NCBI GenBank assembly: GCA_031255715.1
Contig: JAIRRZ010000021.1
Span: forward strand, 286 to 64,285
From: Puniceicoccales bacterium
Lineage (GTDB): Bacteria; Verrucomicrobiota; Verrucomicrobiia; Opitutales; LL51
Direction: 5' to 3'
Length of the DNA: 64,000 nt
Shown here: piece by piece, positions 34,637-36,757 of the stretch
How the letters are laid out: each line of letters starts with the position of its first letter
How positions within the stretch are numbered: the first letter of the stretch is position 1
The notes under the pieces: generated by a model
Databases searched by the model: none
The model's input: only the letters and a program-made list of their open reading frames with translations
What the model was told of the DNA's origin: nothing
Position numbers and translations under genes: made by a program

Positions 34637-36757
34637 TTACCACTCAGTGCTGGAATCACTTTCATGCGTATCGCTGGAACCACTTTCACACGTATTGCTG
34701 GGTTTTTCATGTGTATTGCGGGTAATCACGCTCCCAACTTGGTCTTTGTTTTTTGAGGATACAAGTAATGACCGTTTGGTTCTGAATTGTTGGGTTCCCG
34801 ATTGTTGGGTTCCCGATTGTCGGGTTCCCGACTGTTGGGTTCCCAATCGTCGGGTTCCCGATCGTTGGGTTCCAATTTGTTGGTTCGTTAATGCTCGTGA
34901 AATGGCGCCTTGTTCAACTGTCGGAAACGCTCCTCCCTCATCATCATAGCCTTCGTTTGCTAAGGACATAGGTCTCGATCGTCGGGTTCCCGATTGTTGG
35001 GTTCCCAATCGTCGGGTTCCCGATCGTTGGGTTCCAATTTGTTGATCGCCGCCCATTGACGTGAGTGCTCGTGAAATGGCGCCTTGTTCAATTGTCGGAA
35101 ACGCTCCTCCCTCATCATCATAGCCTTCGTTTGCTAAGGACATAGGTCTCGATCGTCGGGTTTCCGATTGTTGGGTTCCCAATCGTCGGGTTCTCGATTG
35201 TTGGGTTCCCAATCGTCGGGTTCCCGATTGTTGAGTTCCCAATCGTCGGGTTCTCGATTGTTGGGTTCCCAATCGTCGGGTTCCCGATTGTTGGGTTCCC
35301 AATCGTCGATCGCCGAATGTTCGTGAAATGGCGCCTTGTTCAATTGTCGGAAACGCTTCTCCCTCATCATCATAGCCTTCGTTTGCTAAGGACATAGGTC
35401 TCGATCGTCGGGTTCCCGATTGTTGGGTTCCCAATCGTTGGGTTCCCGATTGTTGGGTTCCCGATCGTCGGGTTCCAATTTGTTGGTCGCCGCCCATTGA
35501 CGTAAGTGTTCGTGAAATGGCGCCTTGTTCAATTGTCGAAAACGCTCCTCCCTCATCATCATAGCCTTCGTTTGCTAAGGACATAGGTCTCGATCGTTGG
35601 GTTCCCGATTGTTGGGTTCCCAATCGTCGGGTTCCAATTTGTTGGTCGCCGCCCATTGACGTAAGTGTTCGTGAAATGTCGCCTTGATCAATTGTCGGAA
35701 ACGCTTTTTCCTCATCATTATAGCCTCCGTTTGCTAAGGACATAGGTAATGATCGTTGGGTTCCAATTTGTTGATCGCCGCCCATTGACGTGAGTGTTCG
35801 TGAAATGGCGCCTTGTTCAATTGCCGAAGACGCTTCTGTCGAAGACGCTTCTTCCTCATCATCACAGCTTTCATTTTCTGAGGACATAGGTAAATCGCCG
35901 TCCTTTGACGTGAATGCTTGTGAAGTGGCGCCTTGCTTATTTATCGGAAATGCTTTTTCCTCATCATCACAGCCTTCGTTTGCTAAGGACATAGGTCCCG
36001 ATCGTTGGGTTCCAATTTGTTGGTCACCGCCCCTTGACATGAATGCTTGTGAAATGGCGCCTTGCTTATTTATCGGAAACGCTTTTTCCTCATGATTATA
36101 GCCTCCATTTGCTAAGGATATAGGCAATGATCGTTGGGCTCCAAATCGGTAGTCTTTAAAAATTTGGGCTTTCCTCAATAGGGGATTCAATTTGTATTGA
36201 TTTATCAAGTTTAGAATTTTCTGATGATTGTTTTGTATTTTCTCTCGTAGGCTGGGTATCATGACATGATTATCCGTCTCACTACACTCAATACAGCCAT
36301 ACTTAACTGCCCCTTCCACTATTGACCTGGGGGAATAGTTATCTTTATTTACTATATCTGGGTCAGCATTATTCTGCAATAGCTTTTCTACAACTAATAA
36401 GGATGGACTGACCACGATTACGACACAATGCAATGGTGTATTTCCATCTCCATTTTGCGCATTGACGTCGGCTCCTGCCCTGCACAATAACTCGACCATT
36501 TCCGGACTTTTTGCATAATGCAATGGTGTATTGCCATGCCTATCAACTATGTTTGACTTGCTATTTTTATTAAGTAAGGAGGCCACCTTATCTATATCAT
36601 CATATTGTACCGCACTACAGAGCTGGAAACAATAGTTTCCATCATTTAAGTATATAGATGAGAAACTCTTGGGGGAAAATGCGAAACTTCCCAATAGAAG
36701 ACTTCCAAATGCAATACTTTTCAATGATTTATTCTTAAAAACGTTTACCTTTTCCAT
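34637..36757 (-). CDS. Secreted ankyrin-repeat protein 2 (706 aa) with a nested-repeat tail and an acidic ...STEW C-terminus
   Basis: The signal peptide is MEKVNVFKNKSLKSIAFGSLLLGSFAFS. ANK units read GNTPLHYAKSPEMVELLCRAGADVNAQNGDGNTPLH. About 450 aa of repeats follow. Confidence 0.9.
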   Translation of the reverse strand: MEKVNVFKNKSLKSIAFGSLLLGSFAFSPKSFSSIYLNDGNYCFQLCSAVQYDDIDKVASLLNKNSKSNIVDRHGNTPLHYAKSPEMVELLCRAGADVNAQNGDGNTPLHCVVIVVSPSLLVVEKLLQNNADPDIVNKDNYSPRSIVEGAVKYGCIECSETDNHVMIPSLREKIQNNHQKILNLINQYKLNPLLRKAQIFKDYRFGAQRSLPISLANGGYNHEEKAFPINKQGAISQAFMSRGGDQQIGTQRSGPMSLANEGCDDEEKAFPINKQGATSQAFTSKDGDLPMSSENESCDDEEEASSTEASSAIEQGAISRTLTSMGGDQQIGTQRSLPMSLANGGYNDEEKAFPTIDQGDISRTLTSMGGDQQIGTRRLGTQQSGTQRSRPMSLANEGYDDEGGAFSTIEQGAISRTLTSMGGDQQIGTRRSGTQQSGTQRLGTQQSGTRRSRPMSLANEGYDDEGEAFPTIEQGAISRTFGDRRLGTQQSGTRRLGTQQSRTRRLGTQQSGTRRLGTQQSRTRRLGTQQSETRRSRPMSLANEGYDDEGGAFPTIEQGAISRALTSMGGDQQIGTQRSGTRRLGTQQSGTRRSRPMSLANEGYDDEGGAFPTVEQGAISRALTNQQIGTQRSGTRRLGTQQSGTRQSGTQQSGTQQFRTKRSLLVSSKNKDQVGSVITRNTHEKPSNTCESGSSDTHESDSSTEW
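34760..36110. repeat. Nested coding repeats: 15/30-bp micro-repeats (GTQQS/GTRRL) inside variable macro-repeats of about 158-252 bp
   Basis: The macro-repeat landmark TCATCATCATAGCC occurs at 34939, 35112, 35364 and 35553, with variants at 35711 and 35960. The spacing varies with the micro-repeat count. Confidence 0.85.

What the first reader, a model, noticed from the sequence alone, without database searches (positions are those of the whole stretch)
34637..34700. Same acidic Ser-rich C-terminal tip ending in S-T-x-W on ANK protein 2 and on the WASP-like protein
ANK2 ends ...CESGSSDTHESDSSTEW*. The WASP-like protein (29950-30011) ends ...VSDSDESDSEKSESTAW*. No other ORF in the window ends in Trp.

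There are two non-exclusive readings:
- a minimal Arp2/3-binding acidic-Trp motif, as in WASP A regions and cortactin DDW, would make ANK2 a second Arp2/3 ligand or competitor;
- a shared C-terminal export or recognition signal.

In either case, two otherwise unrelated accessory proteins have converged on the same terminal peptide.
Basis: inference. Interest (0 to 1): 0.6.

Follow-up and report, generated by a model that had tools for sequence, protein, structure and literature searches.

The report
Arp2/3-type acidic-Trp tail on ankyrin protein
An exported ankyrin-repeat protein of an uncultured verrucomicrobial bacterium ends in the same kind of short acidic, tryptophan-tipped peptide that the bacterium's own WASP-like actin-nucleation factor carries as its Arp2/3-binding motif, which suggests but does not prove a second, non-activating ligand for the host's actin machinery.

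Summary
ANK2 (34637..36757, minus strand) ends ...CESGSSDTHESDSSTEW*. The WASP-like protein (27366..30014) ends ...AVSDSDESDSEKSESTAW*. The two share no other protein or DNA similarity.

The window is a contig of a Puniceicoccales MAG (Verrucomicrobiota). Its relatives carry isolate codes that I read as termite-gut samples.

In the WASP-like protein the tail closes a full polyPro–WH2–WH2–C-helix–acidic-Trp module:
- A profile of the clade's WH2 segments hits N-WASP WH2 domains in the PDB (E = 7e-9).
- The C-helix plus acidic-Trp tail recurs in three related MAGs (...SSSTAW*, ...ESSTEWN*, ...SDDQWQKQD*).

The tail is therefore this clade's Arp2/3 "A" motif.

ANK2's tip (SSTEW) is identical to one of these. 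It scores as NPF-like as held-out NPF tails do. Among 620 genes examined, only one unrelated protein has a comparable tail.

ANK2 has no WH2, C-helix or polyPro. It has a Sec-type leader that the nucleation factors lack.

Best reading (about 0.4): an A-only Arp2/3 ligand that tethers or competes, as in Legionella SidG or cortactin. ANK2 has no orthologue, so conservation cannot be tested, and chance low complexity remains a serious rival. The shared-export-signal reading is disfavoured.

The parts
34640..34690 (-). ANK2 C-terminal tip, residues 690-706: CESGSSDTHESDSSTEW. It has 5 D/E, 10 S/T and no K/R in the last 20 residues, and a terminal Trp. The stop codon is at 34637-34639.
   Evidence: Scoring against NPF tails.
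34649..34701 (-). 24-nt tandem duplication (2.2 copies) that builds the tail as two 8-residue units, ESGSSDTH and ESDSSTEW.
   Evidence: Tandem Repeats Finder. Codon reading.
34637..36757 (-). ANK2 gene (706 aa). Layout: Sec-type leader at residues 1 to about 34 (36656..36757); ankyrin repeats, Pfam residues 46-135 (36353..36622); eight long repeats, residues 214-655 (34793..36118); unique segment, residues 656-689; acidic-Trp tip.
   Evidence: (P0020 identical).
34503..34525 (-). Terminator-like hairpin 112 nt downstream of the ANK2 stop. The same hairpin follows ANK3 at 36915..36937.
36809..36836 (-). Sigma-70-like promoter match upstream of ANK2 (TTGACA-16-TAATAT, 10 of 12). This is a consensus match only.
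27366..30014 (+). WASP-like nucleation-promoting factor (882 aa). It has a lineage-specific N-terminal and central domain, followed by the polyPro / WH2 / C / A region.
29484..29537 (+). WH2-like motif 1: LHLDPTAINAAKNRLKSV (residues 707-724).
   Evidence: Clade WH2 profile hits N-WASP WH2 in the PDB.
29547..29726 (+). Proline-rich tract (residues 728-787), including an uninterrupted run of about 31 prolines.
29793..29849 (+). WH2-like motif 2: LDLINLDLIKTAQSNLKKV (residues 810-828).
29907..29957 (+). C (central) helix-like segment: LTLQDILQKAAAIREAV (residues 848-864). L, I and R-E are invariant across four clade nucleation factors.
29958..30011 (+). Acidic-Trp (A) tail: AVSDSDESDSEKSESTAW (residues 865-882).
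32708..34345 (-). ANK1, a paralogue with the same leader and a basic C-terminus (...SARRQSLSNLVD). It serves as a negative comparison for the tail.
37047..41729 (-). ANK3, a paralogue with the same leader and a basic C-terminus (...SARRRTLNNSAEINRL). It serves as a negative comparison for the tail.

Best explanation
ANK2 is an exported ankyrin-repeat protein whose long, probably disordered repeat region ends in an Arp2/3-type acidic ("A") motif, that is, an acidic, Ser/Thr-rich run tipped by a Trp.

The proposed mechanism is that the terminal Trp inserts into the Trp-binding pocket on host Arp2/3, the pocket used by the A domains of WASP-family proteins and Arpin. The acidic and possibly phosphorylated Ser/Thr residues would contact the surrounding basic surface.

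ANK2 lacks the C-helix and the WH2 actin-binding motif, so it should bind Arp2/3 without activating it. It would then either tether Arp2/3 or branched actin to whatever the ankyrin domain binds, or compete with the neighbouring WASP-like nucleation factor for Arp2/3.

Shown here: the tail exists; it matches the clade's nucleation-factor A motif in composition, position and tip; ANK2 lacks C, WH2 and polyPro.

Inferred: binding to Arp2/3, delivery to host cytosol, and the functional outcome.
For: 1. The comparison partner is a genuine WH2-C-A protein.
- A profile of nine clade WH2 segments retrieves N-WASP WH2 chains as the top PDB hits (3m3n_W at E = 7e-9, 2vcp_D at E = 7e-6).
- A C-helix (L-x-D-I-...-I-R-E) followed by an acidic/Ser run and an invariant W aligns across four proteins from different MAGs.

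2. The clade's A tips are SESTAW* (window), SSSTAW* (L003), ESSTEWN* (L002) and SDDQWQKQD* (L009). ANK2's tip is DSSTEW*.

3. ANK2's tail scores like a held-out NPF tail, and almost no background Trp context does.

4. The tail is a derived feature of ANK2. ANK1 and ANK3 share homologous basic C-termini and 3' UTRs. ANK2's 3' coding end is unrelated to these and was lengthened by a 24-nt duplication.

5. A-only binding has precedent.
- The SidG A domain, with W442, is necessary and sufficient to precipitate Arp3 (PMC12904589).
- Arpin's A domain places its conserved Trp (W224) in the same pocket on Arp3 as NPFs do (PMC8810855).
- Cortactin binds Arp2/3 through an acidic domain (PMC10613254 abstract).

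6. The context is host-directed. ANK2 has ankyrin repeats and a conserved secretion leader, and sits 4.6 kb from the nucleation factor. In one relative (L002) ankyrin-like repeats and a WH2-C-A module sit in one polypeptide (Ank_2 at 26.6 bits, just under the cutoff).
Against: - ANK2 is a singleton. A search of 5.8 billion proteins returned only hits to the ankyrin domain, so conservation of the tail or the Trp cannot be tested.
- The syntenic first ankyrin genes in L002, L003 and L004 lack the tail.
- The gene is highly repetitive and the tail itself is a slippage-type duplication, so a neutral low-complexity origin is plausible.
- HMMER profiles of the NPF A or CA region give ANK2 negative scores after bias correction.
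- The tail has only 5 acidic residues and lacks the dense D/E cluster of canonical A motifs.
- Acidic-Trp tails also occur with no Arp2/3 link, for example a planctomycete PilT-like ATPase ending EDEDEDEWDDD*.
- A Sec leader shows export from the cytoplasm, not delivery into the host.
- The CA profile found no WASP-family chain in the PDB.
Confidence: 0.4

Rival explanations
1. The match is a coincidence of low complexity. The ANK2 tail is a neutral, fast-evolving acidic Ser-rich end of a repeat-rich protein, and the terminal Trp has no specific partner.
For: - ANK2 has no orthologue, so there is no sign of constraint.
- The tail is a 2.2-copy 24-nt tandem duplication inside a gene that is mostly tandem repeats.
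- Bias-corrected HMMER profiles of the NPF tails do not detect it.
- An unrelated ATPase in a planctomycete has an even more canonical acidic-Trp end.
- The motif definition was partly chosen after seeing the data.
Against: - Trp makes up 0.9% of residues in the window's gene set.
- Among 620 genes, only ANK2 and one unrelated protein join the nucleation factors in having such a tail.
- ANK2's tip, SSTEW, is identical to that of a nucleation factor retrieved only after the hypothesis was stated.
- ANK2 scores within the range of held-out true NPF tails.
- Its paralogues kept a different, basic C-terminus.
Confidence: 0.3
2. The tail is a shared C-terminal export or sorting signal, read by one secretion machine for both proteins, for example a type IV or type I style C-terminal signal.
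For: - How bacterial WASP mimics are exported is unknown; RickA is "secreted through an unknown mechanism" (bioRxiv 10.1101/2025.08.14.669974).
- From general knowledge, Ser/Thr/Glu-rich C-terminal ends are typical of Dot/Icm-type signals.
- Another effector-like class in the clade, the Myb-domain proteins on L048, also carries an acidic-Trp peptide near the C-terminus.
Against: - ANK2, ANK1, ANK3 and other clade proteins share an N-terminal Sec-type leader. The nucleation factors have none, so the two proteins start export by different routes.
- ANK1 and ANK3 have the same leader but basic tails.
- In the nucleation factors the Trp is 0, 1 or 4 residues from the end, or internal with a different C-terminus. 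It is always coupled to a C-helix and WH2, which fits a binding motif rather than a terminal signal.
- No type III, IV or VI secretion genes were seen in the 64 kb window. Only a GspE-like ATPase, a prepilin-like protein and ComEC were found.
Confidence: 0.1
3. The tail is a different short linear motif. Candidates are a class I PDZ ligand (S/T-x-hydrophobic-COOH), an acidic-aromatic activation-domain-like or adaptor-binding peptide, or a CK2-phosphorylated acidic cluster that recruits some other host factor.
For: - T-E-W-COOH (ANK2) and T-A-W-COOH (window and L003 nucleation factors) formally fit S/T-x-hydrophobic-COOH.
- Myb-like proteins of the clade end ...DDLTWDDTEDF..., which looks like an acidic activation peptide.
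- ANK2 also repeats an acidic-aromatic element, EGYDDEGGAF, eight times.
Against: - The PDZ-type reading fails for L002 (ends ...TEWN) and L009 (ends ...QWQKQD).
- In the nucleation factors the motif always follows a C-helix at a spacing of 15-22 residues, as in WASP-family CA regions.
- There is no independent evidence for any other partner.
Confidence: 0.15

Closest known systems
WASP / N-WASP / WAVE WCA (VCA) region
   Same: The window's 882-aa protein has proline-rich tracts and two WH2 motifs that match N-WASP WH2 by profile. It also has an amphipathic C segment with an invariant Arg, and an acidic tail with an invariant Trp. ANK2 shares only the last of these elements.
   Different: The N-terminal and central domain is lineage-specific, with only a handful of metagenomic relatives. 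The acidic tail is Ser/Thr-rich rather than a dense D/E run, and the Trp is the very last residue. The CA profile does not retrieve WASP-family chains from the PDB. ANK2 has no W or C elements.
Bacterial WASP mimics: Rickettsia RickA and Wolbachia Wbm0076
   Same: These are intracellular-bacterium proteins with polyPro, WH2, C and A motifs that activate or perturb host Arp2/3. The conserved residues R (V), R (C) and W (A) are functionally required in Wbm0076 (PMC9980815; bioRxiv 10.1101/2025.08.14.669974). The window's nucleation factor has the same motif order.
   Different: The phylum differs (Verrucomicrobiota) and the N-terminal domain is unrelated. No homology to RickA was detected in any search. 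Neither RickA nor Wbm0076 is reported together with a second, A-only protein.
Legionella SidG A domain
   Same: SidG is a bacterial effector in which an acidic stretch with a conserved Trp (W442), with no WH2 or C element, is necessary and sufficient for binding Arp3 (PMC12904589). This is the closest functional precedent for what ANK2's tail is proposed to do.
   Different: The SidG motif is internal and Asp/Glu-rich. It is embedded in a Cys-His-Asp enzyme and gated by Rac1. ANK2's motif is terminal and Ser/Thr-rich, and sits on an ankyrin-repeat protein with a Sec leader.
Arpin (and Coro7) CA tails; cortactin N-terminal acidic domain
   Same: These are non-activating or co-activating Arp2/3 ligands that use an acidic-Trp element. 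Arpin's W224 occupies the same Arp3 pocket as the NPF Trp (PMC8810855). Cortactin binds Arp2/3 through an acidic domain (PMC10613254).
   Different: Arpin's inhibition depends on its own C-helix (W195), which ANK2 lacks. Cortactin's motif is N-terminal and inverted. All of these are eukaryotic.

Membership tests
WASP-family-type WCA nucleation-promoting factor (tested for the 882-aa protein 27366..30014) | WH2 (V) actin-monomer-binding motif | tested here: met
   A profile of nine clade WH2 segments gives N-WASP chains as the top PDB hits: 3m3n_W at E = 7.2e-9 and 2vcp_D at E = 7e-6. Pfam's WH2 model did not report a match at E <= 10 on single segments.
WASP-family-type WCA nucleation-promoting factor (tested for the 882-aa protein 27366..30014) | Central (C) amphipathic helix with a conserved Arg, placed between WH2 and A | tested here: inconclusive
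   The segment L-x-D-I-...-I-R-E-x-V is conserved in four clade proteins, with R and E invariant. Profile searches of the PDB did not retrieve WASP-family CA chains.
WASP-family-type WCA nucleation-promoting factor (tested for the 882-aa protein 27366..30014) | Acidic (A) tail with a conserved Trp near the C-terminus | tested here: met
   The Trp is invariant and an acidic/Ser run of 15-22 residues is present in the window protein and in L003, L002 and L009.
WASP-family-type WCA nucleation-promoting factor (tested for the 882-aa protein 27366..30014) | Activation of Arp2/3-dependent actin nucleation | not testable with these tools
   This needs pyrene-actin or TIRF assays with purified Arp2/3.
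A-motif Arp2/3 ligand (tested for ANK2) | Acidic stretch with a Trp | tested here: met
   The tail is CESGSSDTHESDSSTEW. It falls within the score range of held-out NPF tails and in the top 0.2-0.4% of 1971-1986 Trp contexts.
A-motif Arp2/3 ligand (tested for ANK2) | Conservation of the Trp and acidic run among orthologues | tested here: inconclusive
   No orthologue of the repeat or tail region was found among 5.8 billion proteins. Syntenic ankyrin genes of L002, L003 and L004 are not orthologous in their C-termini.
A-motif Arp2/3 ligand (tested for ANK2) | Physical binding to Arp2/3 that depends on the Trp | not testable with these tools
   No multimer structure prediction or biochemistry was available.
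WCA activator (tested for ANK2) | WH2 and C-helix upstream of the A motif | tested here: not met
   The clade WH2 profile gives no ANK2 hit even at E <= 1000. The CA profile gives -8.9 bits. ANK2 has no polyPro tract. ANK2 is therefore not a WASP-like activator.
Ankyrin-repeat protein (tested for ANK2) | Pfam ankyrin repeats above the gathering score | tested here: met
   Ank scores 53.1 bits, Ank_4 43 bits and Ank_2 41 bits, covering residues 46-135.
C-terminal secretion signal shared by two substrates | Both proteins use the same export route, and the signal is strictly C-terminal in homologues | tested here: not met
   ANK2 has a Sec-type N-terminal leader shared with its paralogues, and the nucleation factors have none. 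The Trp lies 0, 1 or 4 residues from the end, or is internal, in related nucleation factors. That the leader is a Sec signal is inferred from sequence features only.
Class I PDZ-binding C-terminus | S/T-x-hydrophobic-COOH conserved at the extreme C-terminus | tested here: inconclusive
   The pattern is met by ANK2 (TEW), the window nucleation factor (TAW) and L003 (TAW). It is not met by L002 (EWN) or L009 (KQD).

The most novel reading that the evidence does not exclude
The bacterium, probably a protist endosymbiont, runs a two-part actin module. One part is a WH2-C-A activator. The other is a separately exported, A-only ankyrin protein that captures Arp2/3 through its terminal Trp. The second protein would either anchor branched-actin assembly to the ankyrin domain's host target or act as a built-in antagonist that limits its own nucleation factor. 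This would be the first such pairing in a bacterium and the first actin-manipulating system described in Verrucomicrobiota.
Probability: 0.2. Interest if true: 0.7.

Novelty: new member of a known kind. Interest (0 to 1): 0.45.

Why it matters
- If the tail binds Arp2/3, ANK2 would be a second bacterial example, after Legionella SidG, of an effector that uses an isolated A motif. It would also be the first case where such a protein sits beside the organism's own WASP-like activator. That arrangement makes it directly testable how a symbiont balances activating and capturing host Arp2/3.
- The comparison partner is of interest in its own right. It is a WH2-C-A nucleation factor in uncultured Puniceicoccales (Verrucomicrobiota), with two N-terminal architectures at the same locus in related MAGs. 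This extends WASP mimicry beyond Rickettsiales, Listeria and Burkholderia.
- The Ser/Thr-rich, Trp-terminal form of the A motif (S-S-T-x-W) would also widen the accepted sequence space for Arp2/3-binding motifs. It hints that the motif's acidity may depend on phosphorylation.

Tried and rejected
- **Exact look-ups.** Look-ups of ANK2 and the nucleation factor on contigs found nothing. The source was identified instead through housekeeping proteins.
- **Full-length homologue search with the nucleation factor.** It returned only one hit, probably because polyPro words filled the candidate list. Even the L003 orthologue was missed.
- **Locus scans with the nucleation-factor alignment.** Scans of genome and metagenome contigs found nothing. 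Relatives were reached through the highly conserved neighbouring GspE-like ATPase instead.
- **Exhaustive HMMER search with the nucleation factor's N-terminal 678 residues.** It gave six distant, mostly truncated relatives, uninformative about tails.
- **Search with a profile of the shared ankyrin leader.** The aim was to list the clade's leader-bearing proteins and inspect their C-termini. It produced 12 candidates and one 56-aa hit.
- **PDB sequence searches with the WCA region and CA profiles.** No WASP-family hit was found.
- **HMMER profiles of the A and CA region against the 620-gene set.** ANK2 was rejected after bias correction. I replaced this with a W-anchored matrix and leave-one-out calibration.
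- **AlphaFold2 on ANK2 without an alignment.** Mean pLDDT was 32, so nothing can be said about order or disorder.
- **Hydrophobic-moment scan for a C-helix.** It did not separate the true C-helices from ANK2's pre-tail segment and was discarded.
- **Copying of the tail between genes.** Rejected, because there is no DNA similarity.
- **Alternative genetic code (UGA = Trp, as in some relatives per PMC8204192).** Rejected. TGA ends 4 of 22 genes, and long housekeeping ORFs are intact under code 11.
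Full report
**Observation**

The minus-strand ORF 34637..36757 encodes a 706-aa protein, ANK2, that ends ...HEKPSNTCESGSSDTHESDSSTEW, followed by TAA. The plus-strand ORF 27366..30014 encodes an 882-aa protein that ends ...LQDILQKAAAIREAVAVSDSDESDSEKSESTAW, followed by TAA. ANK2 is identical to an NCBI-annotated protein of a MAG (P0020).

Among the 45 non-overlapping likely genes of the window, these are the only two that end in Trp. One antisense ORF inside the MgsA gene (44591..44944) also ends in W but is not a gene.

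The two proteins share nothing else. BLASTP finds only the tail, at E = 2.3. The tails use different codons and show no DNA similarity.

**Source**

Housekeeping proteins of the window are exact matches to proteins of "MAG: Puniceicoccales bacterium" (Verrucomicrobiota), on a 69.9-kb contig.

Related contigs come from MAGs with isolate names such as Gsp477_bin70, Nc350_bin186, Ncb351_bin30 and Pcl387_bin18. Reading these as termite-gut sample codes is my inference from the naming style.

Verrucomicrobia of the "Nucleococcus cluster" are nuclear or cytoplasmic endosymbionts of termite-gut protists and ciliates (PMC8204192). Whether this MAG belongs to that cluster was not tested.

The standard genetic code applies.

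**What the 882-aa protein is**

After a lineage-specific N-terminal and central domain, the protein carries these elements in order:
- proline-rich tracts, including a run of about 31 Pro;
- two WH2-like motifs (LHLDPTAINAAKNRLKSV and LDLINLDLIKTAQSNLKKV);
- a segment LTLQDILQKAAAIREAV;
- the acidic Ser-rich tail ending in W.

The neighbouring GspE-like ATPase is at least 90% identical across several MAGs, so I used it to fetch syntenic loci. The gene upstream of it is a polyPro-WH2 protein in six loci from five MAGs or samples.
- L003 carries an orthologue, split at the polyPro tract, that ends ...MLDVIAAHMKARREGVQPDDPTESGQESSSTAW*.
- L002 carries a protein with a different N-terminus. That N-terminus includes ankyrin-like repeats (Ank_2 at 26.6 bits, just under Pfam's cutoff). 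The protein ends ...LEDIMLKTSLIREDIKNSSTEGDPQESSTEWN*.
- L009 ends ...LGDIMAKAAAIREDVAASDSSEAEESDYNSDDQWQKQD*.
- L004, L006 and L007 have an internal acidic-Trp (SKEEDSFWG or SEEESDGWG) after the WH2 motif, and a different C-terminus.

The four C-terminal modules align with invariant L, I, R-E and W.

A profile of nine clade WH2 segments retrieves N-WASP WH2 domains as the two best PDB hits (3m3n_W at E = 7.2e-9, 2vcp_D at E = 7e-6). This is a direct membership test for WH2, and it is met.

The C-A profile does not retrieve WASP-family chains. The C and A assignments therefore rest on motif order, spacing and the conserved Arg and Trp. These are the residues shown to matter in the Wolbachia WASP-family protein Wbm0076 (R209, R258, W280; PMC9980815).

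I conclude that this is a WASP-like, RickA-like WH2-C-A nucleation-promoting factor, and that S-S-T-x-W is this clade's form of the A-motif tip.

**What ANK2 is**

ANK2 is built as follows:
- a leader, MEKVNVFKNKSLKSIAFGSLLLGSFAFS..., with a positively charged start and a 14-residue hydrophobic core;
- ankyrin repeats (Pfam, residues 46-135);
- eight long repeats, SLANEGYDDEGGAFPTIEQGAISRALTSMGGDQQIGT, each followed by a variable number of RRLGTQQSGT units;
- a unique segment;
- the 17-residue tip CESGSSDTHESDSSTEW.

The leader is conserved in ANK1, ANK3 and ankyrin proteins of related MAGs. That it is a Sec signal is my inference from these features.

ANK2 has no polyPro, no WH2 (no hit with the clade profile) and no C-helix (-8.9 bits with the clade CA profile).

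ANK1 and ANK3 share homologous basic C-termini (SARRxxLxN...) and 3' UTRs. ANK2's 3' coding end and proximal 3' UTR are unrelated to these, and only the terminator hairpin is shared. The tip itself is a 2.2-copy 24-nt tandem duplication, ESGSSDTH / ESDSSTEW. The tail is therefore a derived feature of ANK2.

**Is the resemblance more than chance?**

The background set was 620 genes from the window plus 44 other loci.
- A C-terminal acidic, Ser/Thr-rich Trp tail occurs in four nucleation factors, in ANK2, and in one planctomycete PilT-like ATPase that ends EDEDEDEWDDD*.
- A W-anchored matrix trained only on the four NPF tails gives ANK2 4.9 bits. Only 4 of 1971 background Trp contexts do as well.
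- In leave-one-out runs the true NPF tails score 1.5, 9.9, 4.1 and -4.3 bits, and ANK2 scores 3.7, 6.4, -0.1 and 7.5 bits under the same models. ANK2 is thus as NPF-like as the NPF tails are to each other.
- In a composition model ANK2 ranks 7th of 1986, with only NPF motifs above it.
- ANK2's tip, SSTEW, equals that of the L002 factor, which was retrieved after the hypothesis was stated.
- Against this, HMMER's bias-corrected profiles reject ANK2, and the planctomycete example shows that such tails can arise without any actin context.

**No conservation test is possible**

The full-length search of 5.8 billion proteins found only ankyrin-domain matches. ANK1 is the only relative, at 51% identity over 22% of the query. 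The first ankyrin genes after the peptidase gene in L002, L003 and L004 end differently.

**Mechanism**

Published work gives the following basis.
- The A-domain Trp of NPFs and of Arpin (W224) binds a pocket on Arp3 (PMC8810855).
- In Legionella SidG, an A domain with W442 is necessary and sufficient to bind Arp3, with no WH2 or C element (PMC12904589).
- Cortactin binds Arp2/3 through an acidic domain (PMC10613254).

The most likely function of ANK2's tail is therefore W-dependent binding to host Arp2/3 without activation. ANK2 would act either as a tether that links Arp2/3 to the ankyrin domain's target, or as a competitor of the neighbouring nucleation factor. The Ser/Thr richness suggests that phosphorylation could increase the tail's acidity, which is inference only. 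I put this explanation at about 0.4.

**Rivals**

- Chance low complexity is at about 0.3, for the reasons given above.
- A shared export signal is at about 0.1. ANK2 has an N-terminal leader and the nucleation factors do not. The paralogues with the same leader have basic tails. In related factors the Trp is 0, 1 or 4 residues from the end, or internal. RickA's own export route is unknown, so this reading cannot be excluded outright.
- Another short motif is at about 0.15. T-x-W-COOH fits a class I PDZ ligand in three proteins but fails in L002 and L009. Myb-domain proteins on a clade contig end ...DDLTWDDTEDF..., which looks like an acidic activation peptide.

**Comparison and novelty**

The nucleation factor works like RickA, Wbm0076 and WASP, and passes the WH2 and A-motif tests, so it is a new member of that kind in a new phylum.

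ANK2 is not a WASP-like activator, because it fails the WH2 and C tests. If functional, it is a new member of the A-motif Arp2/3 ligands (SidG, cortactin, Arpin-like), with a new domain context and an unusual Ser/Thr-rich, Trp-terminal tip.

Interest is moderate. The pairing of activator and putative A-only ligand in one locus is attractive and cheaply testable, but the ANK2 part rests on a 17-residue singleton peptide.

Noticed in passing
window 27366..30014; L003 6934..9735; L002 7812..9836; L004 8144..9715; L006 6564..7457; L009 1..375: The slot upstream of the conserved GspE-like ATPase holds a polyPro-WH2 nucleation factor in several related MAGs, but with two unrelated N-terminal architectures. 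One matches the window protein. The other starts MSG(I/V)QN... and in L002 carries ankyrin-like repeats. L012 and L013 have no such gene at that position.
   Followed up: partly
window 32708..34345, 34637..36757, 37047..41729 (minus strand): Three tandem ankyrin paralogues share a near-identical N-terminal leader (MKKINVFKxKSLKSIAFGSLLLGSFAFS). A copy of one terminator hairpin follows each gene: 34503..34525 after ANK2, 36915..36937 after ANK3, and a copy with a one-base-shorter loop downstream of ANK1. The ALTTAQ-repeat protein at 43007..43462 has a similar leader. Similar leaders appear on ankyrin and other proteins in L002-L005 and L048.
   Followed up: partly
window 34793..36118 (ANK2 residues 214-655): ANK2 contains eight repeats with an acidic-aromatic element (EGYDDEGGAF) and a Q-G-A-I-S-R-A-L segment, followed by variable runs of RRLGTQQSGT. 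No Pfam match was found, and the clade WH2 profile gave no hit. The function is unknown.
   Followed up: partly
L048 1..912 and 13692..15714: A clade contig encodes an IpgD-like phosphoinositide phosphatase and three Myb/SANT DNA-binding proteins. Two of these end ...PPQDDLTWDDTEDF(Y/C)DQ(Y/H)*. These are eukaryote-like proteins that could act in a host nucleus.
   Followed up: no
L016 8078..9208: A planctomycete PilT-like ATPase (Pfam T2SSE) ends ...EEDEDEDEWDDD*. This is a near-canonical WASP-style acidic-Trp tail in a protein with no link to actin.
   Followed up: partly
window 30222..31376: A short GspE/PilB-family ATPase (384 aa) is at least 90% identical across MAGs whose flanking genes are strongly divergent. 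Its partners and its role are unknown.
   Followed up: no
L002 12513..13355; L004 12584..13603; L007 3905..4138; L048 8994..9776: Ankyrin proteins of the second lineage share a hydrophobic C-terminal motif, LFFLPxxLW. This is a different conserved Trp-containing end from the acidic one.
   Followed up: no
window 46..954: A fourth ankyrin-repeat protein (302 aa) is present. It has no leader and no acidic-Trp tail.
   Followed up: no
window 32957..33368 (ANK1): ANK1 carries 5.6 copies of a 72-nt repeat, encoding SETTSTHSAAVNDK(R/E)AASQAPDRN-like units, in its C-terminal half.
   Followed up: no
L003 9216..9235: The L003 orthologue of the nucleation factor is split into two ORFs just after its polyPro run. 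This could be a frameshift or an assembly error in the homopolymer-like tract.
   Followed up: no
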